Origin: Moniliella sp. 'wahieum'
Taxonomy: Eukaryota
Assembly (NCBI GenBank): GCA_003971905.1
Contig: RSEE01000122.1
Coordinates: 1-64,000, forward strand
Direction: 5' to 3'
DNA length: 64,000 nt
Shown: one piece after another, positions 20,001 to 63,019 of the stretch
Layout: every line of letters starts with the position of its first letter
Numbering within the stretch: the first letter of the stretch is position 1
Made by a program: the position numbers and the translations under genes
Notes under the pieces: generated by a model
Databases searched by the model: none
What the model was told of the DNA's origin: nothing
The model's input: only the letters and a program-made list of their open reading frames with translations

Positions 20001-23000
20001 TCCGGGGATGGAAGTCACTCACATCAGCCAGCACGCGGTCAAAGCACGCTGCCTCCCCGAGTCGCGTGAGACCTGGTCTTTGAGGTCGGTAAAGGTAGTG
20101 GGACCAAAGGCAAGGAAATGGACAATCTCGTATCGCACCACCTCCTCCATGGACCAACCGCCACAGAGGGACGTGTCCATAAGCAGGTGTACCAGCAACA
20201 GCACGCCTCGTCCAGCATTGCTACTTTTTCCCCGCTCTCCTCTCCGTTCCTGAGAAGAGGAAGCACACCGAACCGATCCACAGAGTGACGAACCAGAGCT
20301 CGGGCGAGGGCAACAGGAAGCCAACCTGCAACAGATACACTCGTGATCGTAAAGGATATCGCGCATCTGGCTTCCGCGATAATGATGCGCTTGCGAACGG
20401 AGTGCAAACCCATTTCGCACCCACATCCCCGAACGGACCTGGGCCAGCTTGACTGCAACCCTAAGCGGGATCTCGAGGGAAGCCAAAGCATACGCCTCTC
20501 CGCCCTCGTGAGCGGGGATGAGACTTTGTCGCAAAGCGGTGAGGGAGAGGGCGCGTGTGGCGTAGCAGCTCGGCTAGGGCCCATGCAGAGGGTGATGAAA
20601 TGAGACGGGTTGGGAGGCCACATCAAAAGCAATCACATGGAACGTTTCCTTTCCGAGGACAAACCGAGTGCCACTGCCACGGCCCATACGGCTTCACGGC
20701 CTGCGCCCGTCCCACCCACCTGGGCGGCCCGGAGGCACATCTGGATGACACTCTGAACATTTTTGGAGCTGGTCAGATGAGGCGAATCGGAACGCTTCTC
20801 CGATCAGTTTGGTCATCCGACCCAGGTGCGACGAGATGTGAATAGAGCAATCCACTCGTCCGACTCGTATTCGAGATGCTGTCCTGTCTGACGTGTGGTC
20901 TGGCGCGATTCCTTCAAAATAGGCAAGGAACGTGAGAAGACAGTGAGGTGGCGGGTCTTGGCCAGGAGACGCTGTACCACCCCCTCGGCCTGAGGATATA
21001 GCGCAAGTCATAGAAAGTGGGTAGCACGTTCCGATGGAAATAGTGCCGTCATCGTCGTTTCCCTCGGGGAAGGATCACGTTGGTTTGACCTGGCTTGAGC
21101 ACCAGCAGCGCCCGAAGAAGATCAGCAATCTTGGCAAGAAAGTTTGCTCCCGGACCAGATAGGTGGCCACCGAGGGAACACTGAATACCTGCACCGTCAT
21201 GCTCGAAATGGATTGGTCCTCCCTGTCTCGGAGATATGAACGTCTCGACCATACTTGCATACATAGCGGAAAAGCGGAGAGCTACACATACGTCAGCCAC
21301 TGGATAAAAGGCAAGAGGAAAGGGGGACATACCAATCTGTTTCTTGGTATCCTTAAACCCAATGCAAAGCAAAAGCAGGTCTTGCAATTCGATGCGAGCC
21401 TGCTTCGGCAACTTGTTTCCAAAAGCAGGAGCCCATCAAGTTTGACCAAGTCGCTTGGATCAAAGAATTGTGGGGACATCTGTGGGTGAGAGATAGAGTA
21501 GAGGTGTTGCCACGGCTGCATTAGCTGTTCGTCACAAGTGTTCTCAGGACCATGGGTGCCGGAATCATGCCAGGGAGAAAGAAGGGCTGCGCTACACATG
21601 TCCTTCAAATGCCGCCAGAGCAGGAACGCAACATCTTCACCGAAAACGTCATATGCCGGCCGGATAGAGACGCCCAAAGTCGATACGGGCAAAACCGCAA
21701 GCTGCAAGTAGTAGGTCAGGGACGGAGGTGGAAGTGACCAGCGCATCTCGTCCATACCGATCCACACGCTCCGCCACGCCTTTTGCCTCGCTGGTCGACC
21801 TACCCATGGTATGGGAGACGGTACGAATGACGGTGGGGAAATCATGGTTCTCGTCGTTCCACAACAAAAGAGTAAAGAAACGGCTTTTCTCCTCGCCCCA
21901 ATTCGCAGAGGAAGCAGCAGAGGTAGCTTCTTTCCTCCAAATCCCTAATTCCCTGGGTGCCCTCATACGGGGAAGGCGTCCAAGGGACTGCTGCAGCAAG
22001 ACCAGGGCTTCGTACGGGTCGGTACGCACCTCCCGTGTTTGCGCCTCAGCGTCGGCCACCCATTCGGGTTCAACCCCCCACTCGGGATCGACTACCCATT
22101 CCGGGTCGGCTTGGTCTTCAAACCCTCCCACTCCATATCGCTAGCGTCCGGAGAGATGTCAAGGGATCTCTCATGTTGTAGAAGAAGTCGGACCCGCTGC
22201 GAGGAGGCGAGAGCGCAGGATCCGGGTCTGGGGCCGGGGAAGGGGAAGGGGCACTGGCTTGGGCGGGGGGTTGGGAGGGGAGCGCAGTCCGTTCCACTGC
22301 CTCGTTCCCAGCAGGGTTGGTAAACGACAGAGCCGGAACTGGGTCAAAGGGATCAAGGCTGGGCATGCGGGACAGGACCCGGACGGCGCGCACTTGGGGC
22401 AAGTCAAGGGTGGTTGGGGCGTGTTCGAGAGTGTCGAGAATCAGGTCGAGCATGGCGGCAATATGAGTCTGGAATGCAGCAAGAACGGGGGCGGGCATTC
22501 CCTGGAGAAGATCGGAGAGGTCGCGTTCCTGGGCTTCTGGTGGGTCGGCCTGTTCAGGAGAGGGGGAATGGTAGGTACAGCCAACAGGGAGTTTCCACGC
22601 CTCGGCGTCGCCACAATCACAACAGCCATCACCGCCCTGGGAGATGGAGAAGACAATGTCGTGGCCCACGTGGTTGCTGGCCGAAAAGCAGGGAGCACAT
22701 TGCACATGTGTCATCGTGGCCGCAGTCGCGGCAGCGGTAGAAGGCTTCGCCCCGGCGAAAAATGTGGCCACAGGGGGTGCCCTTGCGGTCAGGGCTGTAC
22801 TCAGCGCCGAGCGGAACACCGCCGGCGGGCGCAACCGAGGCAGCGACGGCCTTCTGGGCCCCCTCTAAGCTCCATCCATGGGCGGAAAGCATGTCAAGGC
22901 AGGCGTCGGCCGAGGCTGGCGCAGCGGGGCTGGGCGGGAAGAGGAACTGGGCGGGGTTGCCGAACGGCTCGATGGCACGGACGAGGTGGGTCCAGAGCGC

Positions 23001-47095: not shown

Positions 47096-50000
47096 TCACG
47101 CGCCAAACGGCGGTTCCTGGCCCGGATGGGCAAAGCTCAAATTGGGCGTGCTGGGCTGGGTAACGCCCGGGGTAGCCCCCGGGGTACGCATCCAGCGACT
47201 GCCCAACGACATGCCTCCCATGGCAAATGGGTTGTCGGGGGGAACGGCAGGGGTACTTGCGTCCCAAGCCCCCCCAAACCCAGGTGGGAGGAACGAGGAC
47301 CAGAACGTTTCGCTCAGCAACTGTTCACTTGGTTCGTCTTCTTCCCGTGCGCCTGGCATGAGCGGGAAACCGAGTGTAAATTGCGCCGCTTCCGCCGGCT
47401 GCATCGTCGGACTGGCAGCGCGCGAGGCGAGCCGCGAAGCAGGTCGGGTAGGCGGACGCGAATGCAATTGCGCTTGCGATTGCGATTGGGCAGCGACCAG
47501 GGCAGCGACAATGCTATTGACGTGGGCGCCCGTGGTGCGTTTGGTGCTGTGGGGCGTGTGGGGCGAGGCGGCGCGGGAACGGTGGGGCGTAGTAGCGTTG
47601 GACACCGACGGCTGGGTACGGTCCGAGTGACTTTGCACGAGCATACGAAGAAAGGTGGCGTAGAGGTAAGGCGTGTGGGTCGGTCCAACAGCGAGCGATT
47701 GGAGAAAGTTGGCCGTGTGGCTGACCAACCGGAGCAAGTGCGCTTCGTCGCTGTACGCGGCAAACGCCGGCTGGAGCAACTTGAGCAAAAACACACACGC
47801 ATATGCCACCATGACAAACTGGCTGTCGGGCGCGTAGCGCAAGTCGCGGCCCAACAGACACGCCGCTTTGATGATCCCCTTGGCCGCATGCAGACAACGC
47901 GAATAGTACGTCGGCGTGTCGAGGCCCGTGCTGGTTGGGTGGTCCAGAGCATGTTGCAGCCCAAACGAGTTGAGCAACAGGACGGCATAGTGGTACCGTA
48001 CCGGACCTTGGCGGATCAGAAAGTAGAGCGCCCGCTGGATGTAATCGGCATTCTCGGGGGCGAATCCGCCTCCACATCCGGTTCCTCCCCCAACAGACGC
48101 AGGATCAACCTTTCCTCCCCGATCCGATTCTCCGACTCGGTCGGCTCTTGCTCTGGGCCAGGCTCTCGCTCTTGCTCGTGCCCAGGTTCCCGCTCGTGTT
48201 CCTGCTCGGGCAAGTGCTCGTGCTCTTGCTCGTGCTCCTCTCCATGCTGGGGCTCGTGCTGGGGCTCATGTTCATGTTCATGCTCAGGCTCAGGCTCATG
48301 TTCACGTTCATGTTCACGTTCATGTTCATGCTTATGCTCATGTTCATCTTTATGCTCATGTTCATGTTCATGTTCATGCTCGTGCTCATGGCCTTGACCT
48401 GAATCTTGGCCTTGCCCGCTTCCCGACGCGTTCTGGGCCGGTGTACTACGTTCCCCCTCGGCCGGCATGGGCGCCGTGCGCTCGACGCCAGCTGGGGTTG
48501 GTTCCTTGGTTGGTTCCGCAGCAGCGTGGCGCAGAGCACGATAATGCTGCATCAAATCATCAAAGCGCCAGACCTCCTTCCACTCTTCCAGCTGCTGGTT
48601 AAAGATCTTGAGCACGGACGGGTAATCAATATCGAGGTGCAAGCCCGACACGGACGTGGTAGAAGAATAGAGAAAGTCCATTTGACGCGACTGGATTCGC
48701 TGCAACTCCACCAGCCCCGAGATTCCCACGTCCCAAGGGCGCGAGTGGCGTTGCATGCACCACGGACGCGAGTTGCGAATCAGCCAGTCTTCCCGCACAC
48801 TGTACGCCTTGCCCATCTGCGCGGCAAACCCACGGTCGATGGTAAAGCACACGTACCACGTACGTTCGCGGTTCAGCAGTTCCCGTTCTCGCTCTGCATC
48901 GTCCTCTTGCGGGCCCATGGCTTTGCGGTCCAGGTTCAAGTCCGTGGCCATGCGAATGGCCAAGCCCGAGAACATCCACGCCGTATCTTGCTCAAACTTG
49001 GCCGACGGCTCGCCCCACAACGACAACAACAAGAAGGCCTGCACAATTTCCACCGATTTGAACCCGTGTTCGAGCGAGACAAAGGCGCATTGCTTGGCGT
49101 ACTTGAGAGCTTGCGCATGTAGCTCGGGCCGCGCAGCATAGAAGCGCGACGCAACCGCCAAGATGGCCGTGAAGAGGAATGGAGACCGGGCACAGACAAA
49201 GGTAGGTGTGTGCCAGTCCGGGTCGAGCAAAAAGGCATACTGCATGCAATGCACAAAGAAAATCCGAAACAGTTCCACCACCTCCTCACTGTCCACCACC
49301 CCATCTTGCAAAATCTCGGGCGGCATCTCCCGTTCAATCGCAATCTGACGCAAGGGCAGAATGGAGATGGCCGACGGCTTAAAGTACGTCGAATTGGCCA
49401 CGCCCAATGGGATCTCCTCGTCCCCAGCCAGAGAGGGCACCACATCGGGACCCGCACCGCCCGACGCGGCCGCAGCAGCGGCAGCAGCAGCGGTAGACGC
49501 GCTGTAGCTTGGCGAATTGCTCGGCCCATCCGACACGCTGGCGGGAGGGTTGCTGTCCATGCGCGTGGCCGAGGTGCCACGGTGCTTGCGACGGGACCGC
49601 TGGGCGTTGTGCAGACTGGCCTCGGCCAAGAGCCCTAGTGGGTTGAGCGTGTTGTCGGGTAACGCATGCAGACGTGGCGACGTGGTGCGCGAGTGGTTGT
49701 CCCGGCCCTTGCGTGAGGGGGCGGGTTGGTACGGCTTGAGGCGGTCCTTGAGGCTCGCTCGCCGATCCACGCTGTCCCCGCCGTTGGAGCCGGCCGATTG
49801 GCCCGAGGTATTGGACAGCACCGAATCGCCGCCATTGGTAGAGGGGGAGTGGAGGTGGGGCATGGGCTCGGCAAAGCGCAAGTCGGGGTGGCGGGTGGTC
49901 GTGCCCGAGCGCGGACGCTTCTGCATCGTCGAAGTCAAGGTGGGCCGGGGCACAAATGCCGGTGGAGCAAAGTCGGTGGGCGCCGGGGGGGCAGGTTCAG

Positions 50001-50854
50001 TCAGCGCCGGATCAACGGGAGGCCACGACGCGGGCGGCGGTGGGCCGGTGGCCGCCGCTGCAGCCGCAGCCGCTGCTGCCGCCGCCGCCGCCGCGGCTGG
50101 GTCGACGAGGTTGGACAGACCCGGCGGCGGGGGCGGCTGGAGCTGCTGCTGGAGCGGCTGCTGCTGGGTCTGCTGCGGCGGCTGGGGCTGGTGCGTGGGC
50201 GGCTGCGGCTGCGGCTGCGGCTGCGGCGGGAAGAGGCCGGGCGGGGGCATGTGCTGCAGCTGGCTCAGCACGTGCGGGGGCAGGGTGGTGTTGGAGGAGT
50301 GGAGGGACTGGAGGACGGTGGCCAGCGTCTGCTCCATCTTCTGCAGCGACGCGGCCATGGCCTCGGTGCGCTGGCTCTTGGTGCCCTTGCGGCGGCGGTT
50401 GGACTCTTCAAACACACACGCATGGTTCGACGCCTTGCAGCGCACACAGGGCGGGCCGTCCTCGGCGCCGAGGCAGCGCATCTTGAGGCGGCGGCAGTGG
50501 AGGCAGGCGCGCTGGGAGCGCTTCTGCTTGGCGGGCTTGTCCTTGGCGGCGGCCTTGGAGGCGGAGGGGCTGGGCTTGGATTGGAGGCGGGGGCGCTTGC
50601 TGCGCGGCGCGGCGTCGGGCGCGGCGGCGGCATCGGGGGGGCAGCGGCGGCGGCGGCGTCGCGTGGCTGGGCGCGAGCGAGTCCGAGTCGGAGGCGGAGG
50701 CGGAGTCGGAGTCGGAGCCGGACGCGGAGCCGGACGCGGAGGCGAGCGGGGAGCAGCGGCAGGCAGCGGCAGCGGCAGCGATGCGCCGGTGCGTGCTGGC
50801 GGCGGCCAGGCCCACGACGGGCCGGCTGGGCCGGAGGTGTGGGGGGAAGGACAT
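47096..50854 (-). CDS. Zn(II)2Cys6 transcription factor with a fungal-specific TF (middle homology) domain, PriB-like
   Basis: RACLHCRRLKMRCLGAEDGPPCVRCKASNHACVF; RSPFLFTAILAVASRFY, KSVEIVQAFLLL, GLAIRMATDLNL, NRERTW..CF..DR; C-terminal LRYAPDSQFVMVAYACVFLLKL. Confidence 0.9.
48140..48390 (-). repeat. Coding His-Glu dipeptide repeat (CATGAA/CAYGAG)n inside the transcription factor
   Basis: GHEHEHEHEHEHKDEHEHKHEHEREHEREHEPEPEHEHEHEPQHEPQHGEEHEQEHEHL. Confidence 0.9.
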
Positions 50855-51076
50855 GGTGGGTGCACTCCGGTTCGTGCTGTGGCCCGGGGGCCGGATGGCC
50901 GGAGCGGCGGCGCCCCCGCGCGCCTGCTGACGTCAGCCCTGCTCACGTCAGCGTCTCGTCCGGGCCAGTCCGGGCCACATGATCGAGGATCGGTGGCCCG
51001 AGTCCCGCCGCACCGGCACGACGCTGAACATTTGACAACGCGACACGCCGCGCACAGACACGCGCAGCCATACGAG

Positions 51077-51148
51077 TCACGCGTCACGCGTCACTCCGCC
51101 AGACCCAGGGACGCGTCGCGGACGGCGGCTGGAGAGCACACGCGCGTT
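51077..51148. promoter_or_regulatory. Cluster of MCB-like ACGCGT/CGCG elements upstream of MSH6(-ECO1), in a divergent promoter
   Basis: TCACGCGTCACGCGTCA (51077-51093), GACGCGTCGCG (~51110), ACACGCGCGT (~51139). Confidence 0.5.
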
Positions 51149-51215: not shown

Positions 51216-54200
51216 ATGGGCAAGCAGAGCTCCCTCTTCGGCTTCTTTGCCGCCGCCAAGGCGCCTCCTCCCCCCGCCGCCGCCCCCGCCGGCACCAACG
51301 CGGAGTCCAACGCGGAGACCCAGGCGGAGGCCAACGCGCAGACTCCAGCGGAGACCAAGACCCAGACCAAAGCTAGTGCCAAGGCCAAGGCTAACACCAA
51401 GGCCAAGACCAGCACCAAGGCCAAGACCAACACCAAGACCAGTCGCGCCGCCCCTGCCCAATCCAAGCCCACTCCCAAGCCCACTCCCAAGCCCACTCCC
51501 AAGCCCACTCCCAAGCCCACTCCCACCCCCCTCGACCGGTCCAACTCCCCCCCCGGTCCAACCGACGAGATGGACATTGACGCGTCTTCCCCCCCGCCGC
51601 TTTCCGCCACCGCCACCGCCGCGACCACGACCGCGTCGCCCCCCTCCCCACCCACGCCCATCCCACCGCTGCCCACCGCTGCTTCCCCCGCCGCGTCAGA
51701 GGAAGACATTCCTGGTGTCGTACGTACCTCCCCTCCTCACGTTGTGCTCGCTTGCTCCCGTGCCGTCTAACATGCCCTACTTAGCGTCGCACCCGTCGTC
51801 GCGTGATCAATTATGTCGAGTCGGACGCGTCCGACTCGGACGATGCCCCGGCGCCCAAGCGGGCCAAACTGGCGCGCGGCCGGACGCGCCGTGCGCGGTC
51901 GGAATCGGAAGAAGACGACTTTGCTCCGTCGGACAGTAGCGCCAGTGACAATGAGAGCGAGATGGCTTCGGCTTCGGCTTCAGCGTCGGAAGCCGAGTCG
52001 GCATCGTCCGAACCGGAATCCGAACTGGAATTCTCCACTGCCATCACCAAGAAGAAGGGTAAGGGTAAGGGAAAGAGCACACTGTCTGCTGCGCGACCGC
52101 AGTCACGCTCGCGCGTTCCTCCCTCTGAAGCGGGTAGACCGAGTGGGTCGCCGCCACGCGAGGCAGGGCGGACAGTGGTAGTCAAGGGAAAAGCGAACGA
52201 CCAACCGTTTGCCTTTCTCCATCCTCCGCGCGACAAGGACGGCAATGTGCGTGGTTCGGCGGCGTACGATCCGCGTACGCTGCTCATCCCCGCGTCGGCC
52301 TGGACGAGCATGACGCCGTTTGAGCGGCAATTTTGGCAATTGAAGCAGGACCGGTTTGATACCGTCTTGTTTATTCAAAAGGGCAACTTTTACGAACTGT
52401 ACGAGGACGATGCTACGCTAGGCCACCAAGTGCTCGATCTCAAGTTGGTCGATGCGCCCAAGATGCGCATGGTGGGCGTACCGGAAAAAAGTTACGAAGG
52501 GTTTGCAGCCAAACTGCTCGGCTTGGGATACAAGGTGGGCAGGGTAGACCAGGACGAGACGGGCGTCGGACGCGATGTCCGCACAGCCCAAGTCAAGGGC
52601 AAAACCATTGTCCAGCGCACCCTGCGCCATGTGTTGACCAGTGGCACGATTGTCGAACCGTCAGCATTGCAAGATGATTTGAACAGCTACTGTCTTGCCA
52701 TCTGCCAAGCGCCGCAGGGCAGCGGCATCGGTGTCTGTACTCTGGATGCGGCCACGGCCGAGTTCCGTTTGGCCAGCCTTCCGGACGAGGCGGGGCTGGA
52801 ACTACTGCTCCGCTCGTTCCGGATCAAGGAGGTGTTGTTGGAAAAGGGGCGGAGCGAGGCCACCCTGCGTTTGGTCCGCGCTTGTCTCCCGCCTTCGGCC
52901 CAACTGATTCAACTTACCAGCGGAGACGAGTTCCCTTCCCCCGCCATGGCCAGCGAGGTCCTGCGCACATTTTTCCCCGATGCGCTTCCCGCCGGGGTAC
53001 GCGACACGGTGCAGGCGGATACGCCCGAGCCTCTGGCCGCACTGGGTGCGATGCTTTTGTACCTCCGTACGCTCAATTTGGACCAGGACTTGCTGGCGAG
53101 TGACAACTTTGGTCCGCTGCTATGGCAAGGTGATCGGATGGAGTTGGATGCCCAGACGTTGACTCACCTCAACATCTTGACCAACGACCAGGGTACCGAC
53201 GAAGGCACGTTGCATGCGTTGCTCAACCACTGCCAATTGCCCTGGGGCAAGCGGCTGCTGCGGCATTGGCTCTTGCATCCGCTTCGGGACATTGGCCAGC
53301 TCAACCAGCGCCTGGACGCCGTGCAAGATTTGTTGATGGACGATGATTTCCACCAGGCCTGGGCCACGTTCGCACGCACGTTGCCCGATGTGGAACGGGT
53401 GGTAGCGCGCATCCGTGCTGGGCGGGCCAAGCCACGGGAATTTGTTGCGTTGCTCGAAGCGTTGGGCGGAGTGGACGAGGCGGTGGAGCAATTGCGCACG
53501 TACGTACAGGACCACCATGGTACCCATGCCATCGAACGCATCTTGGCTTCCATCCCCTCCTTGGCACAGGTCGTGCTTCCCCTGCGCGACCAATTTACTA
53601 TTGCGCCTGACCTGGGCTTTGATCCGGTCCCCGGCACCGACGATGCGTATGACCAAGCTCAGGCTCACCTTGCCACGCTCGAAGAGGAACTGGACACGTT
53701 ACTCGACACGATTGCCAGCGAACTCAAGTTGGCCCGGACCAAGGTGCAGTACCGCCATAGTGGGACCAAGGAGATTTACCAGGTCGAAGTGCCGCGCAGC
53801 ACCAAGGTCCCTCCCAACTGGATCCTCCTGGGCCAGACCAAGGACAAAGCGCGTCACTACCCGCCCGCGGTCAAGCAACGTGTCCAAGCGTTGCAGCATG
53901 CGAGGGAAGCTCGCTTGGCCAGCCTCACGCAGTTCCGACTGCGCTTGTTTGACCAACTCGCCACCTTGGCCCCGACCATCCTGCTGGCTGCCACCCACTT
54001 GGGCCAAGTCGACTGTCTCGTCTCCTTGGCAAGGGCCAGCGACGCAATGGGCTCAACCGTACGACCCACCCTGGTCCAATCGGACGAAGCGCTGGTGGAG
54101 CTGACGCAGGTACGTCACCCCACCCTTGCTACCAAGAGCACCTTTGTGCCCAACGACGTCTCCCTTGGTGGGAAGGCGGAAGATGTGATGCTTCTCACGG

Positions 54201-55080
54201 GCGGCAATATGGCCGGTAAGTCCACCTTGGCCCGCACCGCCGCCACCGCCGTTCTGCTCGCTCAAATCGGTTGCTTTGTCCCGGCTGAAAAGGCCGTCGT
54301 GGCGCCTGTGGACCGGATCGCGTCCCGAATGGGCGCAAACGACCAACTCTTCCACCGCCAGTCTACCTTTATGGTCGAGATGATGGAGGCTTCTCGGGTA
54401 CGTTTTGTTTCGCTCCCCTGGGAAATTTGGTTCTGTCACATGGATTGGCTTGGGGCTATGTCCTGCTCTTGTGGCCCGGGCACGCAAGACAGACACGCTG
54501 ATGGCTGGCTTACTGACAACACTCTTTGGTTACTTGTTTTGATGGTTTGGTGGGGGGGTGGAACGGATAGATTGTGGCACAAAGCACGCCGCGTTCGTTG
54601 GTCATTCTGGATGAGTTGGGACGCGGGACATCGACGTACGATGGCCAAGCGATTGCCTATGCCGTGCTGCACCACCTCTTGGCGCGCACGCGATGCCGAG
54701 GTTTCTTTTTGACGCACTATGCTGCGCTCGCACGCGCGTTTGCTTCGTACCCGCGCGTCGCTAACCGACACATGCGCGTGCTGGTCGAGCCAGGGCAGGA
54801 CGACGTGGCGTTCACCTACCAGTTGGTCCCGGGCATTGCTCAAGCTAGTTACGGTACCCAAGTTGCTCGTCTGGCCGGAGTGGATCGCTCGATCACCCAC
54901 CATGCCCACCAGGTCAGCACCCAGTTCCAACGTGCCTCTGAACCCGACACGCACACGCCCAACCCCGTTCAGGCCTGCACCCTCTCCGACTTTGCCTTTC
55001 TTGTGCGCCTGGCTACCGAGGGCGAGCCGGCGTGCGTCGCACAGCTCGATCTCGTCCGACAAGCTGTCCTCGCCGCTCCC
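51216..55080 (+). CDS. MSH6: DNA mismatch repair protein Msh6 (MutS-alpha); introns 51720-51784 and 54398-54570; no stop codon, reads on into ECO1
   Basis: PIP box QSSLFGFF, YDPRTLLIP, KGNFYELYEDDA (Phe-X-Glu), Walker A TGGNMAGKST, QSTFMVEM, Walker B SLVILDELGRGTSTYDG, THY, SYGTQVARLAGV; both introns are phase 0 and restore the frame. Confidence 0.95.
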
Positions 55081-56267
55081 GCCTCGTCCTGCCGGCCTGA
55101 GCACGTCGAAGCAGAGTGCCGCTCGCCTGTCTCCCTGCGGGAGGAACACCGAGTCGACGCCCAGGACGATAAGGACAACGACAACGCCATGGATAACGAC
55201 AAGGGCAACGACAAGGACGCGAGTCATTTGTTGCCTGCGCACGCCTCGTCGGCTCGCACGACCGACGAAGATGAGGACATGGCTGTATCCGAGCCCGAGT
55301 CCGTGTCGGCGTCCGTCTCCTCGCCTCAGACGCAAGGCGAAGAGATGCGGGCCTGGTCGCCGGGCACGGCGGACGAAGAAGAGGTGCGTGCGTCGTCGCC
55401 TCCCACGTCGCCTGTGGCCGGGGAGCGAGGCACGCGCAATCCGCTGCTGACTGCGGCGGGGGGTAAGGCGCGAGCACAGACCAAGAGCCGGACCCGAACC
55501 CGACCGGCGACGCAATCGCTCCTCCTGGCGCCTGGGACCAAGACGTGCAAGGAGTGTGGCATGGCGTACGACGCGGTGAACAAGCAAGACGCGGCGCTGC
55601 ACCAGGCCTTCCATACACGCATGACGCAGGGCCTGCGCTGGCCCGCGCGCTGGGCTGCCGCCGCCGAGGCGCAAGCGGCGGACGCAGGGCCCGACACGAC
55701 CATCCTGGTTTACCCGCTCAAGATGGGCGGCGAGGTGGGCAAGGCGGTGGGGGAGGTGGTGGCGATGATGGACGAGGGCGGGCGCGGCCGGTGGCGGAGG
55801 AGGTGCGGTGCGGGGGGAAGGTGCTGGTGGCGCGGCGTGCTGGGCGGGTGGTGGGGGCGGCGCTGGTGGCGCCGGTGGCGGAGGGCGCGGCGCGGGAGGT
55901 GGTGATGCGTGCGGGCGAGGCGGGGGCAGCGGCCGAGGCGGCGCTGGAGGCGGTGCTGGTCGACCGCACGGCGCGGCGGTGTGGGGCGGCGGTGGGGGTG
56001 CACCGGATCTACGTCGTGGCGGGTGCGCGTGGGCAGGGGCTGGGGCAGCGGCTGCTGGATGCGGCGCTGGCACACGGCGTGTATGGCCAGACGGCGGCCC
56101 AGACGCTGGCCCAGGCAGGCTCCCATGCGCGCGCGCTCGCCTTCTCCCAGCCGACGGCCGCGGGGCGCCGCCTGGCCCAGCGCTGGATCGCCGCCCACGC
56201 CGCCGCGCTCCCGCCGGCCGACGCCGCGGCCGAGCGGCGGACGCTGCTCGTGCTGAGCGAGGAGTAG
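55081..56267 (+). CDS. ECO1: Eco1/ESCO cohesin acetyltransferase moiety (linker, C2H2 finger, GNAT domain), in frame with MSH6; one indel at ~55780
   Basis: TQSLLL..KTCKECGMAY....QDAALHQAFH; KAVGEVVAMMD; KVLVA..GRVVGAALVA; VGVHRIYVVAGARGQGLGQRLLDAA...YG; LAFSQPTAAGRRLA. Confidence 0.88.
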
Positions 56268-56734
56268 GCAGGGAGCATGCATTCATCTTTGCGACTGCGA
56301 TTGCGATCGCCATGGCCGCCATGGCCATGGGCATGGCCGTCGTGGCCGTCGTGGGGGTTATCGGATAGCAGACACGCGCAGGGTGTGATGGGGCGGTGAC
56401 AGAATGACAGGCAGTGATAGCCGCGTGATGTGACGTGGCACAGGCCTGGTGCGGGCGGGCGCGACGCGACGGGTGAGCGGGTGGGGCGGGGACGCAGACG
56501 GCGGCACGGGGCCAGTGCTGGACGCTGCCAGCCGCGGCGGACGTGGCGCAGGCGGGGGCGGGGCACGGGGGCGCTGTGGCCCATCCGCGCGCCGCCGTGG
56601 CTCGAGGCGGACTAGCCCGCAGAACGCAGCGCGGCGTCCCCCGTGCGTCCCCCGTGCATGCCCCGGCGGAGCGCTGAGCGCCAGCCGCCTGATGGGTGAC
56701 AGTCGCGGGCGCTGATTGCGTCCACAGCATCGGC

Positions 56735-59700
56735 ATGGCCGCTGCCACTCCAACCCAACCCGCCCATCGCCATCGCCACCCCCACCGCCGCCACCGCCAC
56801 CACCGCGTCCACTGGCCCATGCCGTCCTCTGCGCTCGTGGCCAGCGCCTCGCGCCTCGCCCTCGCCCCCTCCATCTCCGCCACCTCCTCCGCCTCCGCCC
56901 TCCCGCCCACCGGCACCCGTGAGCTGGCCGACGTCCTCGCCGTCGCCAACCAGTCCGCCGCCGCGCTGGTCCGCGCCTACGGCTACTTCGACCTCCCCCA
57001 GGCGCTCCATCTCGAGCTCGACCCCCGCCACGTCGAGGCCCTCGTCCGCGTGTGCGGCGCCCAGCTCCGCCAGCGCGCCCTCGACACCCCGCTCATCTTC
57101 TCCTCCCTCGCCCTCGACCTGAGCCCGGCCGGATGCGTGTCGCTGCTGCGCACCTTTCTTGGCCTGCCCACCGGCCTCGACGCCTACCGACCCGGCGCAC
57201 ACCCCGCCGCCATCCACCCGGCCCTCCCACCCGTCGACAAGCCCATCAGCCCCGCCTTTGCCCAGGAAGTCGCCTTTGCCAACCCCAACGACCTCGCCGC
57301 CCTCATCAAATGGAGCCTGAGCCGCATCGGCAAGGTGATTGCCGTCCATGCCCCCCACCCTGGCGCGGGCACCGAGCCACCAGGAGTGACGCCTGCCGAT
57401 CCGCAAACCCTCTACGTCCAACAGCGCGGCTTCCTCTCCTTGGACATGTACACCCAATGGAGCGCCGCCGAACGTCGTACGTGTTTCCGCCGCTCTTCAC
57501 ATTCCCCTCCCCCGCGCCCTCATCGCCCCCCCACCACGCGCCCACCCCACGAGCGCAACTGACCTTCTCTTCCCTCCCCCCCCTCTTTCTCCAGGCGCCG
57601 GCTTCCCCGACACTGCTTTTGGGCTGTTTGTAACCCAGCTGCCGCCACATGAGCGCCAACTCCTGCTCACCCTCTTCTCCCTCCTCTCCTCCACCGTCTC
57701 CTACTCGCTCAAGAACGGCATGACCCCCTCCCGCATGGGCCGCACCTTTGGTCCCCTCCTCTTTGGTCTGCCGGAAGACGAGACGTTTAGCAAGACATAT
57801 TCCGCCTACGTCAAGACGAGCAATGCGGCGGAACACTTGCTGCTCGCCTACATTCGTCAAGCTGGTTCCACCTCCTCCCTCCCCGTGCGTCTGGCCGAGC
57901 ATGTGGCCGACTATGTGACGAGCATCAGCAATGACCCCGCCACAGTCAAACCTCACATTCAACAGGCACCCTTAACCCTGATTGAATCCAACGTTCGCCT
58001 CTACAACCCCGACCTGATCCAGACCGCTTGCCTTGCGCCGGTGCACAATTGTCCCGAGTGGACCGCTTGCCTGTCCACCTCCGACACGTTTGGACGGCTG
58101 CCTCAACTCTCCAACCGGTCGCGCAAACTGCTCAAATTCACCGGTGGCGTACAGGGCCTCCCCTTCTCTCCGCCCGTTGGCGGTGGGGGCTTGGACCACT
58201 TGCAGAGCAAGACGGCCGTTCTGCCTGCTTCCTCGCTTGCCGAGGTGGAATGGGGTCAATTCGCCTCGCTTGGGTTTGAAGAGACAGATGCAAGCAAGTT
58301 AAAGTTTGATCTTACCGAGTCGCAGCGCAAGAATCGCCGGGAGCGGCCCAAGACGATGGTGTGGTCCGACTTTGAACATGCTGGCTTTATTGGGACCGAA
58401 AAGGAGGAGGACACGTTGGACTCGATCTTGGCCTTTGATGCGCAGCTCAAGTCCGGATTGGAAGAGCGGCCGGACGAACGAGCGGCGTTGATGCAACGCT
58501 TGAAAGATGCAGAAGCGTGCTTGCCCCCCTTTACGTACCCGACCGAGCCCGTTGTCATCTCCTCGCCCTCCCGCCCGACCGGCGGCGTACCCCCCCAGTT
58601 TGACCCCATGTTTGCCGAGGTATGGGCAGATTACCTGATTGGCAGCGGATGGAGCAACCGCGATGAACTGTCCCATCGCCCAGCCAACTTTGTGGTGGTG
58701 CAGTACAAAAGTGTCAAAACCCGTTCGTCCATTGCCGTGGGAGGAAAAGACGCAGAGGACTCGGACCCGCGCACGAAGGCGCGTGGTTCGTGCTGTCCGA
58801 AGTGGTTCCTCAGGGCTACCGCAACGAGCTCGAGACATTTGATCGCAAACGTGAAAAATCGAGGCCCATGTTGCGCAAGTTCTCCTTATTCAAGCGCGGC
58901 AGGAAGTCCGGCGCCAAAGCTATCGATCCGGACGATGTCTTCCAGCCAGGCAGTGGAGGCGGGACAAAAATGCTCAAGTTGTCGGACGAGCCACAATCGT
59001 CCAAAGACCCAAGTATGCTCCGGGTCAGCCCTACTACCAGCTCTGTCTCACCACTGCCGTCGCCACGAACGACCCAGTCGTCTCTGTCCAAGCACTCTGT
59101 CTTGTCTGACACGACCAACCGCGACTTTGAACCTCCCACGACGGGCAAAACCGCACGCCTGACCGCCGGGGGGACCAAGTTGATCTCTGCCATCAAGTCG
59201 CGCAGTTCCAATGGGAAGAACAAACATCTTCGTCCCTTGACACCCGGTAGCATTGAGTCCAACGAACACTTGCCCCACCCGCATTCGCCTGCCTCGTCGC
59301 TCGGCCACCGAGGCAAAGTGCGCCACGAGTTGGCTGGCGTCGTGTCCGGTATGGCCTCCGTTGCGAACCGGCGCAAGCCACGGAAAGAAGCCGAATTCTC
59401 CACCGTCGACTTTGACACGGTTTCTGTCGCTGAGATGGACCCTGCTACAGGCCGGCCTGTGGCGCGGGAAGACCGATGGGTGGATGTGCAAGTGCGGGCG
59501 GAACCGAGATCGTCCAATTCATCGGTACCGTCGGTGCCGCCCATGTCGCCTGCGCAGGGAGGCAGTGCTACGCCCAAAGCCCGACGTCCCACCTTGGTCG
59601 TTGACCCGCCACAGGGGGCCGAACTCCCTCGCTCCTCCCCTGCTTCCACCCAGCCTTCGCCCAGGATCGCCTCCCCTGCCTCGTCGGTCCCGACACGCTA

Positions 59701-60808
59701 CCTCTCTTCCCCTGGCCCGTCCCCGGATCCCAGCCACACGGTTGGGCGTGCTCGCATGGCCGAGCTGAGGGGCACGTCTTCTCCTGTCCTCTCCTCGCCC
59801 AGCACGCCCAACGACGAGGAAGAGGAAGATGGATCAGCAACGCCCAAGATGACCGCCTCGCGTTCCTTGGTGGAAGAACGACGGGCTGGGTCGCCACCGG
59901 GTGGATCCAAGTTACTACCTCCGGACCATCCTTTGAACTTACGTTCGGCGCTGCGCAAAACCCCTTCGCCAGTCCCGTTTGTCGATCCGCTTCAAGCCCG
60001 TTCCACCACGCCTACCGAACCACGAGCCCGTACGCCCTCAACCGCCTCGGTGCACGACGACCCGTTCGACAAGTCGCGTGGCGCTGGCCGCGTCGCCCGC
60101 TTGGCCGGCCAATTTGGTGCGCTGAGCCCCCCAGGCGGGAGCGGGAGTGGGAGTGGGAGCAGCGCGCGCAAGCCTCCCCCTTCCCTGCTCGATCGGCCGG
60201 ACAGCCTGGGATCAGACGTGTATGTGCCAACGTCCAGTCCGGAGATGGGCAAGAACGCGCGTCTGTACGAGCGCGAGCGCGAAGCGGCTGCGCGGCGCGA
60301 CGAACTCGATCCCGAGCGCGAAGAGGCATCGGCGTTCATTGGCGACTTTATGCAGCGCAATGGGTCTGGCACCACGCTCGGTGCCACGTCCGAGACCGAG
60401 GAAGATATTGTCCTCCACCGTCCGACCGCCCTGCCCCTAGGCGCTGGACTGGGACTCAGTGGTCTGACCTTACCCACCAACACGAGTACGAATACGAATA
60501 CGAGCACCAGTACGAGTACGAGTGCGAACCATTCGCTGGCTGTGCCGCCTTCGCCCTCTGCCTCGTCCTTCACCTCGTCCTCTTCCGCTGGCATGCGTCC
60601 CAACTCGTTCGACGCGCCTCGACAGTGGCGCTTCACCACCGACCTCCCGCCCGACGAACAAGAGCAGCTCATGATGGAGGAAGACGAGGAGGATGAACCT
60701 GTGTTCCGCGAACGGTACCAGCCTGGTCAACCGCTCCACTCGCTCGTCGAGGCGCCGAGAAGAAAGTTTGCGCTCGAGCATGACAAGTGCCTCGTTCAGC
60801 TTGCGTAG
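56735..60808 (+). CDS. Msb1/Mug8-domain (RhoGAP-like fold) protein with a long Ser/Pro-rich tail; intron ~57477-57594; indel ~58785
   Basis: LVRVCGAQLRQRALDTPLIFS, DLAALIKWSLSR, GFLSLDMYTQWSAAER, KNGMTPSRMGRTFGPLLFGL, AAEHLLLAYIR, WGQFASLGF, WSDFEHAGF. Confidence 0.6.
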
Positions 60809-61626: not shown

Positions 61627-63019
61627 CTAGGCATGGCGCATCTGCAGCGTAGCCTCGATCATGCGCCAAAAAGAAGCGGCCAACTGCTTGTCGGTGTGGC
61701 GTTGATGGCGGTCGACCACCAACTCACGTACAGGCCAAAGCGAGATATTTTCCTGCCGCGGTTCGTTGTGGTACCGCACGTACAGGCCGAGGTGACGCTG
61801 GAACAGCGCTTGGGATCCTGCTCCTTGTACGCTTTAAACTGCCACGTTTGGCCCGTGGTGAAGATGGCTGCCACGCGGCTCCACGCGTCCGAAGGCGCAC
61901 CCGGTCGCGACGGCCCAGCTAGCTTCTGAAGCGCATCCACATTGTCCACCACGAGGAACCGCGTCGGTTTCGGTGCTTGACCAGGCACGTTGGACCGAGC
62001 AAAGCTCATGGTATGGCTAAGTGTAACCACGGTCTCCGCGACGCCGCGCGCTTCGCGCCGTGCTTGGTCCGGGTGCACAAACACGCCTTCCTCCAACAGT
62101 TGTTTGACATTAAACATATTGACCAACGCCGTCGGCGAATTGGACAAAAGCAAAATCGGATCCTGAGCACGCTGTTTGCGCACCAAGCCCGCCCGCTGGC
62201 GCACTCGCTGGCACAGGCGGTGCAACAACTTCTTTCGCACGACCCATAACCAGCTTGCGCATACTTTCCAGCCGATCCGCAATCGTCGTTCGGAAATGAG
62301 AAAAGTCACTGGTCTGGGCCCAAAACTGCGTACCATGCGCCGCATCGTTCCGGTTGCGCGGCACCATCTCCACTTCGCTCCGCAGTTTCTTGACAAACAC
62401 CTTATCCGCCTCGTCCGGCACGTACGTACGTTTGGCCGCCGTCGGAGCAGCCGTTGTCGTTGTTGCGGTCGCGGTCGAGGTCTCTGGCGCTGTCGAAGTC
62501 GAAGTCGACGTCGCTGTAGTTGTCGCTGTTGCTGGCGCTGGCGCGGGGAGGTCCTTGTCTTTCACCGCTGCGGGCGCGGAAGAAGGCGGGGGAGTCGTCT
62601 CCTTCTTCTCATCGCCTGCGAGGGGACACGCCATCCCATTCTTCACGCTTTCCCAGCAAGTACTCCAAGATCTCCGCGCGGTAGATCAACTCGAGACGGG
62701 CGACCTTGGCGGCAGCACGGAGACGGGTGTAGGTGCCGCTGGACTCGTCTTTGGTCCGAAGAGCAAAAACCAACGCGTCTAATGGAAGCAGTCCATCGGG
62801 CTTGGAGCTCGCCGAACCATCGCGCGCCGAGGCGCGGGTGGCGGCAAGCCGGGTGGGCTGCGAGGCGGGGAAAGTGACTTCGCCCGTGGGCAGCTGGAGA
62901 CGCACGTGGCTCGCCTGCTCAATCGCATCGACGGGCTTGCCATCAGCGAGGAGCGTGACGTTGCTCAGATCGCCCGTAGGCGCAACGGCAGCGCGAAGCG
63001 CGTCCAGGGCGTCAGCCAT
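61627..63019 (-). CDS. CDC73: PAF1 complex subunit Cdc73/parafibromin; frameshifted
   Basis: DPILLLSNSPTALVNMFNVKQLLEEGVF, RFLVVDN, WSRVAAIFTTGQTWQFKAYK, ending FWRMIEATLQMRHA then stop. Confidence 0.9.

What the first reader, a model, noticed from the sequence alone, without database searches (positions are those of the whole stretch)
51216..56267. MSH6-ECO1 gene fusion: mismatch sensor joined to cohesin acetyltransferase
Seen: the last MSH6 exon (from 54571) passes Walker B, the HTH and the terminal helices. It then continues with no stop through a ~140-aa acidic/Ser-rich linker into the Eco1 QxxL motif and CKECGMAY..H...H zinc finger, all within ORF 54574-55905. The GNAT domain follows after one indel. 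The linker looks coding, with no pyrimidine-rich 3' tract or promoter-like gap, and the MSH6 region is otherwise free of frameshifts. Established: Msh6 and Eco1 both act at replication forks via PCNA, and S. pombe Eso1 is a natural Pol eta-Eco1 fusion. I know of no Msh6-Eco1 fusion. Inference: an independent fusion that delivers Eco1 to forks via MutS-alpha/PCNA and could couple mismatch recognition to cohesion or acetylation.
Basis: partly seen in the sequence, partly recalled or inferred. Interest (0 to 1): 0.86.

Follow-up and report, generated by a model that had tools for sequence, protein, structure and literature searches.

The report
MSH6–Eco1 fusion gene, fungal
In this high-GC basidiomycete yeast-like fungus the mismatch-repair gene MSH6 runs without a stop into the cohesin acetyltransferase gene ECO1, a fusion shared with relatives and already mentioned once in a preprint.

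Summary
MSH6 is exon 1 51216-51719, exon 2 51785-54397 and exon 3 from 54571. Its last exon reads with no stop through a 148-aa linker into an ESCO-type zinc finger (55546-55614). After one net -1 frame break at 55764-55790 it continues into an ESCO-type acetyltransferase domain, ending at TAG 56265-56267.

The fusion is not an artefact of this assembly:
- The closest relative found, P0121, is one 421-aa ORF with MSH6 end, linker, zinc finger and GNAT, and no stop or frameshift.
- P0124 (1634 aa) and P0129 (1724 aa) carry MutS I-V plus both ESCO domains.
- MSH6 and Eco1-module trees give the same grouping: window + sister + P0129.

The frame break is most likely a 1-nt assembly deletion. Intron-less -1 shifts of the same kind interrupt CDC73 and UBR1 in this window.

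The fusion is already in print. bioRxiv 10.1101/2024.10.15.618488 reports MSH6 fused to ESCO zinc-finger and acetyltransferase domains in Ustilaginomycetes. This is therefore a new member of a known, unstudied kind. Function is inferred, not shown: both modules probably act at PCNA-marked replication forks.

The parts
51216..51719 (+). MSH6 exon 1 (168 codons): start ATG, PIP-like QSSLFGFF at 51225-51248, low-complexity Lys/Thr/Pro-rich N-terminal tail
   Evidence: tblastn of P0129 q1-146 to 51216-51698
51720..51784 (+). intron 1, 65 nt, GTACGT ... CTAAC ... TAG
   Evidence: read from the sequence; the frame changes from coordinates mod 3 = 0 to mod 3 = 2, as required
51785..54397 (+). MSH6 exon 2 (871 codons): MutS domains I-IV and the first part of V; FYELYE at 52388-52405; Walker A GGNMAGKST at 54200-54226
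   Evidence: Pfam; all named hits among the 120 listed are MSH6/mismatch-repair proteins; motif coordinates
54398..54570 (+). intron 2, 173 nt, GTACGT ... ATAG. Two unnamed relatives appear to have an intron at the same position: their ORFs P0001 and P0002 lose homology just after the same 'EASR'.
54571..55068 (+). Start of exon 3: MutS_V C-terminal half (Walker B ILDELGRGTST at 54604-54636) and the MSH6 C-terminal helices up to ..LDLVRQAV. Unfused MSH6 of Ustilago-type fungi stops about 10-40 residues after this point.
   Evidence: Pfam; alignment
55069..55512 (+). Linker of 148 codons (D+E 19%, S+T+P+A 42%). It holds an acidic Asp/Asn/Lys stretch absent from P0121. The block SSPPTSP (55393-55413) ... 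RNPLLTAAGGK (55435-55467) is conserved with P0121. In-frame ATGs at 55189, 55279, 55345.
55513..55620 (+). Eco1 QxxL motif (QSLLL) and the ESCO C2H2 zinc finger CKEC...H...H (55546-55614)
   Evidence: Pfam zf-C2H2_3; clade profile against ESCO1/ESCO2; coordinates
55764..55790 (+). Net -1 frame break inside the conserved 'DEALGA' motif of Eco1, in a G/C-rich stretch
   Evidence: tblastn HSP ends; alignment; frame switch in the codon-usage scan between 55777 and 55807
55779..56267 (+). ESCO-type GNAT acetyltransferase domain in the -1 frame (RGQGLGQRLL at 56028-56057, AFSQPT at 56139-56156), stop TAG at 56265-56267
   Evidence: Pfam Acetyltransf_13; 57% identity to P0121; AlphaFold2 model with pLDDT 85.5; the best 12 PDB fold matches are all xEco2/ESCO1/ESCO2
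55903..55905 (+). TGA that ends the MSH6 frame as assembled. It would give a 1483-aa product lacking the GNAT domain.

Best explanation
This is a genuine, inherited gene fusion in an Ustilaginomycotina-type basidiomycete. The last exon of MSH6 has no stop codon of its own and continues into the whole Eco1/ESCO cohesin acetyltransferase. The product is one protein of about 1604 residues: N-terminal PIP box, MutS I-V, a roughly 150-residue low-complexity linker predicted to be disordered, a QxxL motif with the ESCO zinc finger, and a GNAT domain.

The single -1 frame break at 55764-55790 is most likely a one-base deletion made by sequencing or assembly, not a feature of the gene.

Shown here:
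- the architecture;
- its conservation in at least three other lineages;
- the same grouping of the fused lineages in the trees of both halves;
- the intact ESCO-type fold of the out-of-frame part.

Inferred:
- The fusion probably arose from adjacent tandem MSH6 and ECO1 genes by loss of the MSH6 stop.
- Both modules keep their ancestral jobs: mismatch recognition with Msh2, and Smc3 acetylation.
- The benefit is joint S-phase expression and joint tethering to PCNA at replication forks, as in the Pol eta-Eco1 fusion Eso1 of fission yeast.
For: - Pfam finds MutS I-V, zf-C2H2_3 and Acetyltransf_13 in order on one strand. The MutS_V end and the ESCO zinc finger lie in the same 444-codon open frame.
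- P0121 is the best hit of the GNAT piece (57% identity, E 3.7e-41) and comes from an independent data source. It is one uninterrupted 421-aa ORF with MutS_V end, linker, zinc finger and GNAT.
- P0121 has no Met between the MSH6 C-terminus and the zinc finger, so there Eco1 cannot start at an ATG of its own inside the linker.
- 2 of the 56 hits are long fused proteins. P0124 (1634 aa) and P0129 (1724 aa) each carry all seven Pfam domains.
- The alignment shows homology in the MSH6 frame before the linker, inside it (SSPPTSP..RNPLL[TS]AAGGK) and after it.
- The codon-usage scan favours the MSH6 frame in 37 of the 41 windows centred from 54607 to 55777. That includes the window centred at 55147, upstream of the first linker ATG. 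It favours the -1 frame in all 14 windows from 55807 on.
- Quick ML trees: MSH6 gives {window, P0001} (SH-aLRT 100) grouped with {P0002, P0129} at 98. The Eco1 module gives {window, P0121} at 99, joined by P0129 at 97.
- The frame break reads as an assembly error. CDC73_C profile positions 2-106 and 104-157 lie on abutting DNA in two frames (61803-61812). PRT6_C of UBR1 continues across about 17504 in the same way. Both are -1 shifts with no room for an intron.
- The GNAT ORF after the break is intact to a conserved C-terminus..RRTLLVLSEE in the window against ..RRTLLVLSE in P0121. It folds as ESCO.
- The preprint independently reports MSH6-ESCO fusions.
Against: - As assembled, the frame that carries MSH6 and the zinc finger stops at 55903-55905 before the GNAT domain. 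Without reads I cannot prove the break is an error.
- This assembly clearly contains 1-nt deletions. A deletion just upstream of 55098 would put that TGA into the MSH6 frame, because it lies in exactly the frame a 1-nt deletion would create. The codon-usage signal is weak at 55057-55117.
- The window's linker has three in-frame ATGs. The P0124 linker contains a stretch (M..SYGGRNKRRR) that matches the N-terminus of the free-standing Eco1 P0123. Separate Eco1 products from internal starts are therefore possible in some lineages.
- P0124 and P0129 may be automatic gene models.
- No transcript or protein evidence was available, and no functional test was possible.
- Both trees are 'quick' searches without bootstraps.
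Confidence: 0.82

Rival explanations
1. Two separate tandem genes. MSH6 really ends at the TGA at 55098-55100, hidden by a 1-nt assembly deletion just upstream. ECO1 starts at the ATG at 55189 (or 55279 or 55345).
For: - The assembly has -1 indel errors elsewhere.
- The TGA at 55098 sits in the frame such an error would create.
- It is close to where unfused MSH6 proteins of relatives end.
- The codon-usage signal is ambiguous at 55057-55117.
Against: - It needs an error within about 30 nt of one particular place.
- ECO1 would have to share the MSH6 frame by coincidence.
- It leaves only 88 nt between the stop and the first ATG for a terminator and a promoter.
- Frame-specific coding signal is present upstream of that ATG: 14.2 against -6.0 and -22.9 in the window centred at 55147.
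- The sister lineage P0121 and the next relative P0129 are fused with no stop.
- No error occurs in the 3.8 kb of MSH6 upstream.
Confidence: 0.04
2. The open frame is continuous, but most or all functional Eco1 is made as a separate shorter protein. It would come from an internal promoter and one of the linker ATGs, so the fusion protein would be a minor or non-functional by-product.
For: - Three in-frame ATGs lie in the window's linker.
- The P0124 linker retains a Met-led stretch homologous to the N-terminus of the free-standing Eco1 P0123.
- In S. pombe Eso1 the N-terminal partner is dispensable for cohesion (recalled, not checked here).
Against: - P0121 has no Met at all in its linker.
- The window's ATGs are not conserved with it.
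- No stop separates the genes in 4 of the 4 fused lineages seen.
- No promoter-like AT-rich or pyrimidine-rich gap is present: GC stays at 0.65-0.70 across 55000-55600.
Confidence: 0.15
3. The -1 frameshift at 55764-55790 is real. This strain (or one allele) makes MSH6 plus linker plus zinc finger without the acetyltransferase, and the GNAT part is a very young pseudo-domain.
For: The assembly says so. The break lies in a stretch without any long homopolymer.
Against: - The 163 codons after the break are open, 57% identical to P0121, and end at the conserved C-terminus.
- They fold confidently as ESCO.
- Identical -1 breaks hit other conserved genes in the window.
- Eco1 is essential in the yeasts studied (recalled).
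Confidence: 0.1

Closest known systems
MSH6-ESCO fusions of Ustilaginomycetes noted in bioRxiv 10.1101/2024.10.15.618488 (passages of section 8 and the legend of Fig. S5 read; figure and supplementary tables not visible)
   Same: The same two partners in the same order: MutS domains of MSH6, then the ESCO zinc finger and acetyltransferase. It is the same fungal subphylum as judged by the MSH6 tree.
   Different: The preprint gives a domain-architecture observation from predicted proteins, with no gene structure or analysis. Here the join lies within one exon, and the nearest relative has one uninterrupted ORF. The window's lineage sits on a long branch with P0001/P0121 and P0129, apart from the named Ustilaginomycetes. 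I could not check whether this lineage is among those in their Fig. S5.
Schizosaccharomyces pombe Eso1 (Pol eta-Eco1 fusion; recalled, not looked up here)
   Same: Eco1 is the C-terminal module of a larger PCNA-binding replication-fork or repair protein. It probably originated as a read-through of neighbouring genes.
   Different: The N-terminal partner is a translesion polymerase, not a MutS homologue, and it arose independently in an ascomycete.
Free-standing Eco1/Ctf7/ESCO1/ESCO2
   Same: - Zinc finger plus GNAT core.
- The clade profile matches ESCO1 (5t53, E 2.3e-22) and ESCO2 (6sp0, E 6.4e-22) in both parts.
- The fold matches xEco2, ESCO1 and ESCO2.
   Different: There is no start of its own. 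The N-terminal region is replaced by MSH6 plus a linker. The motif before the finger is degenerate in the window (QSLLLAPGTK) against the clade consensus EQLILDLGQK.
MSH6 with N-terminal PWWP or Tudor reader domains (animals, plants; the subject of the same preprint)
   Same: MSH6 serves as a scaffold that acquires chromatin-related domains by fusion.
   Different: Those domains are N-terminal histone readers. Here a C-terminal enzyme is added, and no PWWP or Tudor domain is found.

Membership tests
MSH6 (MutS-alpha subunit) | MutS domains I, II, III, IV, V in order | tested here: met
   Pfam: all five are above their gathering scores. MutS_V is split by intron 2 into profile positions 1-71 and 71-187.
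MSH6 (MutS-alpha subunit) | Orthology to MSH6 rather than MSH2/3/4/5 | tested here: met
   every one of the 120 listed hits that carries a source name is called MSH6, a mismatch-repair protein, a MutS-domain-V protein or 'hypothetical protein'. The window sits inside Ustilaginomycotina MSH6 in the tree. No tree with other MutS paralogues was made.
MSH6 (MutS-alpha subunit) | N-terminal PIP box, Phe-x-Glu mismatch motif, Walker A and B (motif definitions recalled) | tested here: met
   QSSLFGFF at 51225-51248, FYELYE at 52388-52405, GGNMAGKST at 54200-54226, ILDELGRGTST at 54604-54636
MSH6 (MutS-alpha subunit) | Heterodimer with Msh2 and mismatch-binding activity | not testable with these tools
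   No MSH2 in the window; no assay.
Eco1/Ctf7/ESCO acetyltransferase | ESCO-type C2H2 zinc finger | tested here: met
   zf-C2H2_3 at 34.4 bits against a cut-off of 27; C-x2-C ... H-x3-H at 55546-55614
Eco1/Ctf7/ESCO acetyltransferase | ESCO-type GNAT domain (sequence and fold) | tested here: met
   Acetyltransf_13 at 52.9 bits against 22.8. The clade profile hits ESCO1, ESCO2 and XEco2 (4 of 4 PDB hits). The model has pLDDT 85.5, and PDB ranks 1-12 are all Eco/ESCO chains.
Eco1/Ctf7/ESCO acetyltransferase | Zinc finger and GNAT in one uninterrupted reading frame | tested here: not met
   There is a net -1 shift at 55764-55790 in the assembly. I judge it an assembly error from the same defect in CDC73 and UBR1, but this is not proven.
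Eco1/Ctf7/ESCO acetyltransferase | Acetylation of Smc3 and a role in cohesion | not testable with these tools
   No assay.
MSH6-ESCO fusion (preprint 10.1101/2024.10.15.618488) | MutS domains and ESCO domains on one polypeptide | tested here: met
   MutS_V and the ESCO zinc finger share the ORF 54571-55905. The same holds for P0121, P0124 and P0129. The GNAT domain joins after the -1 break.
S. pombe Eso1-type fusion | N-terminal DNA polymerase eta domain | tested here: not met
   No polymerase family was found in any part. It is an analogue, not a member.

The most novel reading that the evidence does not exclude
In this clade the fusion is obligate. The only Eco1 of the cell is the C-terminal domain of Msh6, with no second ECO1 gene and no internal start, as the Met-free linker of P0121 suggests. 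Cohesion establishment would then be physically tied to the Msh2-Msh6 clamp and its PCNA tether. MSH6 would become an essential gene. Eco1 might also acetylate mismatch-repair or fork proteins held next to it.
Probability: 0.35. Interest if true: 0.6.

Novelty: new member of a known kind. Interest (0 to 1): 0.4.

Why it matters
If the fused protein is the working form, it is a second, independent case after fission-yeast Eso1 in which evolution welded Eco1 to a PCNA-bound fork protein. That supports the view that Eco1 only needs to be carried along with the replisome.

It also has practical consequences:
- Deleting MSH6 to make mutator strains in these fungi could remove Eco1 and be lethal.
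- Annotators should neither split this gene nor call the Eco1 part a pseudogene because of an assembly indel.
- The fusion offers a natural construct for testing whether mismatch sensing and cohesion establishment influence each other.

Tried and rejected
- Candidate in-frame introns 54913-54972 (60 nt) and 55384-55467 (84 nt, GTGCGT..CTGAC..AAG), seen by eye. Rejected: P0121 aligns through both as coding sequence.
- An intron to explain the frame change at 55764-55790. Rejected: there is no room, the break lies inside the conserved DEALGA motif, and the sister ORF is continuous.
- (word-index search with linker plus finger, residues 121-400, 244-777 aa): 4943 candidates, none at E <= 0.001. 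Uninformative.
- (GNAT piece against longer proteins): only P0121 among the 8000 candidates scored. Weak evidence, as the tool itself says.
- none of the 120 listed MSH6 hits carries ESCO domains. Only proteins of 479-1525 aa were searched, so fused forms could not appear. This is not evidence of absence.
- (single-sequence PDB search of the -1 frame ORF): only marginal GNAT hits (best E 0.011). Replaced by the profile search.
- (protein atlas with P0129): only MutS clusters, all below 0.9; no large fused cluster. No conclusion.
- Synteny of MSH6 and ECO1 in Ustilago, Malassezia and other fungi could not be checked.
- The preprint's Fig. S5 image and its supplementary tables could not be seen. 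They may list this lineage.
- Two further long hits (P0134, 982 aa, and P0155, 785 aa, both with multi-stretch matches) were not examined.
- The Msb1 frame change at about 58765-58785 could be a weak 53-nt intron (GTACAA..CAG, no branch-site consensus) or another -1 error. Left open.
- No complex prediction was run. The report does not claim that the modules bind each other.


Full report
**What is there**

The window is GC-rich fungal DNA, 0.55-0.80 GC around the locus.

The MSH6 gene model follows from the sequence and from homologues.
- Exon 1 is 51216-51719. It starts MGKQSSLFGFF, a PIP-like motif at 51225-51248.
- Intron 1 is 51720-51784 (GTACGT..CTAAC..TAG).
- Exon 2 is 51785-54397 (871 codons).
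- Intron 2 is 54398-54570 (GTACGT..ATAG).
- Exon 3 runs from 54571.

Pfam finds MutS I-IV and the first 71 profile positions of MutS_V in exon 2. It finds positions 71-187 of MutS_V at residues 1-119 of the ORF 54571-55905. In that same ORF the ESCO zinc finger zf-C2H2_3 lies at residues 322-350. The ESCO acetyltransferase domain Acetyltransf_13 lies in the overlapping ORF 55467-56267, which is the -1 frame.

**Is it more than chance?**

Stop-free stretches are common in this DNA. 9.1% of all 201-codon stretches in six frames are open (11540 of 126790). 68 of 5000 shuffles of the linker region lack an in-frame stop. Openness by itself is therefore weak evidence.

The case rests on homology and coding signal.
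- A codon-usage score was trained on 2788 codons of other genes in the window. It prefers the MSH6 frame in 37 of the 41 windows centred from 54607 to 55777. The exceptions are centred at 54727, 55087, 55477 and 55507.
- It prefers the -1 frame in all 14 windows from 55807 on.
- The signal is strong at 55147, which is upstream of the first in-frame ATG of the linker.

**Relatives**

MSH6 exon 2 finds Ustilaginomycotina MSH6 proteins at 44-50% identity (Ustilago, Sporisorium, Pseudozyma, Malassezia, Ceraceosorus). It also finds one unnamed ORF, P0001, at 66%. That search could not show fused forms because of its 1525-aa ceiling.

Scoring the GNAT piece against 1.84 billion cluster representatives gave 56 hits.
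- The best is P0121: 421 aa, 57% identity, E 3.7e-41.
- Two are long: P0124 (1634 aa) and P0129 (1724 aa).

P0121 is one open frame. It contains the end of MutS_V, the MSH6 C-terminal helices, a Ser/Pro-rich linker, the ESCO zinc finger and the GNAT domain, with neither stop nor frameshift. It has no methionine between the MSH6 part and the finger. P0124 and P0129 each have all five MutS domains plus both ESCO domains.

In the alignment the window matches these proteins in the MSH6 frame:
- up to ..LDLVRQAV (55068);
- again in the linker block SSPPTSP..RNPLLTAAGGK (55393-55467; P0121 has SSPPTSP..RNPLLSAAGGK);
- and through the finger.

Unfused MSH6 proteins of Ustilago-type fungi and Malassezia end about 10-40 residues after the position of 55068.

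**The frame break**

tblastn with P0121 gives two abutting matches. Residues 1-258 fall on 54772-55776 in the MSH6 frame. Residues 257-421 fall on 55764-56261 in the -1 frame. The break falls inside the motif DEALGA, which 11 of the 12 full-length aligned Eco1 modules share (the exception has DASLSA; P0121 reads DDALGA). There is no room for an intron.

After the break the 163 codons are open and end in ..RRTLLVLSEE, against ..RRTLLVLSE in P0121. They give a confident AlphaFold2 model (pLDDT 85.5). Its 12 best PDB matches are all xEco2, ESCO1 or ESCO2. A profile of the fungal clade hits only ESCO1, ESCO2 and XEco2 in the PDB (4 of 4 hits).

**Why the break is probably an assembly error**

I examined other frame changes in the window.

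Five have recognisable introns:
- the two MSH6 introns;
- two in the LRR gene at about 40400 and 42200, the second less canonical (GTCAGC..CAG);
- one in the Msb1-like gene at about 57480-57595.

Others have no intron.
- In CDC73 the Pfam profile runs 2-106 in one frame and 104-157 in the next, on abutting DNA at 61803-61812. The translation reads ..KEQDPK / ALFQRHLGLYV.. across a single missing base.
- In UBR1 the PRT6_C profile continues across about 17504 in the same way..LLLEHP / GVYELVDL...
- Two more shifts are likely in 17880-18030, judged from the three-frame translations only.
- One more is possible in the Msb1-like gene at about 58765-58785.

Every one of these is a -1 shift in a short G or C run, like the one in Eco1. 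The assembly therefore drops single bases now and then. The Eco1 break is most simply one of these. I put about 0.85 on that.

**Could the same kind of error hide an MSH6 stop?**

The TGA at 55098 lies in exactly the frame that a 1-nt deletion would create. The codon signal is weak at 55057-55117.

Against it:
- The error would have to fall within about 30 nt.
- ECO1 would have to share the MSH6 frame by chance.
- Only 88 nt would separate the stop from the first ATG.
- Coding signal in the MSH6 frame is present upstream of that ATG.
- The two nearest lineages are fused.

I give this rival about 0.04.

**Evolution**

A quick ML tree of MSH6 (27 rows, SH-aLRT only) places {window, P0001} at 100. 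That pair joins {P0002, P0129} at 98, inside a 100-supported Ustilaginomycotina clade. P0124 sits on the branch that also holds Ceraceosorus and the named Ustilaginomycetes. Malassezia forms a third branch.

The Eco1-module tree (23 rows) independently gives {window, P0121} at 99, joined by P0129 at 97. P0124 groups with P0122. The two halves thus give the same grouping of the fused lineages, as expected if the fusion was inherited as a unit at least in the window/P0121/P0129 group. Whether P0001 and P0121 come from one organism was not established.

The P0124 linker contains M..SYGGRNKRRR, which matches the N-terminus of the free-standing Eco1 P0123. This is what a fusion of tandem genes by stop loss would leave. 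Whether there was one origin with later splits, or several origins, cannot be decided without genome context, and no such context was available.

**Known or new**

Searches of the held library returned one relevant source:
- Msh6 + Eco1 + fusion (14 papers, 10 listed);
- MSH6 / ESCO / Ustilago;
- hyphenated fusion names (1 paper);
- MSH6, Tudor, PWWP, convergent evolution, ESCO;
- Eco1 + Ustilaginomycotina (0 papers).

The source is bioRxiv 10.1101/2024.10.15.618488. I read passages of its section 8 and the legend of Fig. S5. [quoted passage not shown] The figure and supplementary tables were not visible.

The kind is therefore already in print as a one-sentence observation. What this window adds:
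- a member on a divergent branch;
- exon-level proof that the join needs no splicing;
- a conserved linker block;
- the same grouping of the fused lineages in the trees of both halves.

**How it probably works (inference)**

The following background is recalled, not checked here. Msh6 and Eco1 are both brought to replication forks by PCNA through PIP-type motifs. Eco1 acetylates Smc3 during S phase. In S. pombe, Eco1 is the C-terminal third of Eso1, fused to Pol eta.

In the window protein the MSH6 PIP box is intact. The motif before the Eco1 finger is degenerate: QSLLLAPGTK against the clade consensus EQLILDLGQK. This fits a shift of the tethering role to the MSH6 part but does not prove it. 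The linker is long and low in complexity (D+E 19%, S+T+P+A 42%). The two modules can therefore probably act independently while sharing expression and location.

**Context**

Neighbouring genes are ordinary housekeeping genes:
- a Zn2Cys6 factor, divergent upstream (48019-51090, minus strand);
- an Msb1/RhoGAP-like gene downstream (about 56700-60800);
- CDC73, UBR1, a TRAPP subunit, a formyltransferase, and LRR and PAS proteins.

None of the 80 ORFs scanned elsewhere in the window has an ESCO domain.

Noticed in passing
window 61803-61812 (minus strand): CDC73 is broken by an intron-less -1 frame shift. Pfam CDC73_C positions 2-106 and 104-157 lie on abutting DNA in two frames, and the translation reads ..KEQDPK / ALFQRHLGLYV... 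It looks like a dropped base in the assembly.
   Followed up: yes
window 17100-22900 (minus strand), especially ~17504 and 17880-18030: The UBR1-type N-recognin gene (zf-UBR, ClpS, UBR1 winged-helix, PRT6_C) is cut into a dozen ORF pieces. At ~17504 the PRT6_C profile continues across a -1 shift with no intron, and two more such shifts are likely in 17880-18030. This is either many assembly deletions or a decaying gene.
   Followed up: partly
window 58765-58785: The Msb1/RhoGAP-like gene (about 56700-60800) changes frame by -1 between ..DSDPR and EGAWFVLSEVVPQGYRNELE... It is either another dropped base or a weak 53-nt intron (GTACAA..CAG) without a branch-site consensus.
   Followed up: partly
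window ~48200-48450 (minus strand, within ORF 48019-51090): The Zn2Cys6 transcription factor upstream of MSH6 ends in a long His-Glu dipeptide repeat (HEHEHEHE..., with variants). It also has poly-Ala and Gln/Pro-rich runs. It is transcribed divergently from MSH6, with its 5' end facing the MSH6 start.
   Followed up: no
window 51340-51530: The MSH6 N-terminal tail contains short tandem peptide repeats: AKT(N/S)TK units and five KPTP units. It is low-complexity and not conserved with relatives.
   Followed up: no
window 54439-56976 (minus strand): An 846-codon open frame runs antisense to the whole linker-Eco1 region. It is Pro/Ala/Arg-rich and looks like a by-product of 70-80% GC, not a gene. 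It was not among the ORFs scanned with Pfam.
   Followed up: no
P0124 residues ~1310-1345 against P0123 residues 1-25: The linker of the fused protein P0124 contains a Met-led stretch (..SYGGRNKRRR..) that matches the N-terminus of a free-standing Eco1 of another Ustilaginomycotina-like fungus. This hints that the fusion arose from tandem genes by loss of the MSH6 stop, and that an internal start may persist in some lineages.
   Followed up: partly
window 55140-55230: The acidic Asp/Asn/Lys stretch of the linker (DAQDDKDNDNAMDNDKGNDKD) is an insertion relative to P0121. A similar DNDNDNDNDKEN run occurs inside the free-standing Eco1 P0130, at a different position.
   Followed up: no
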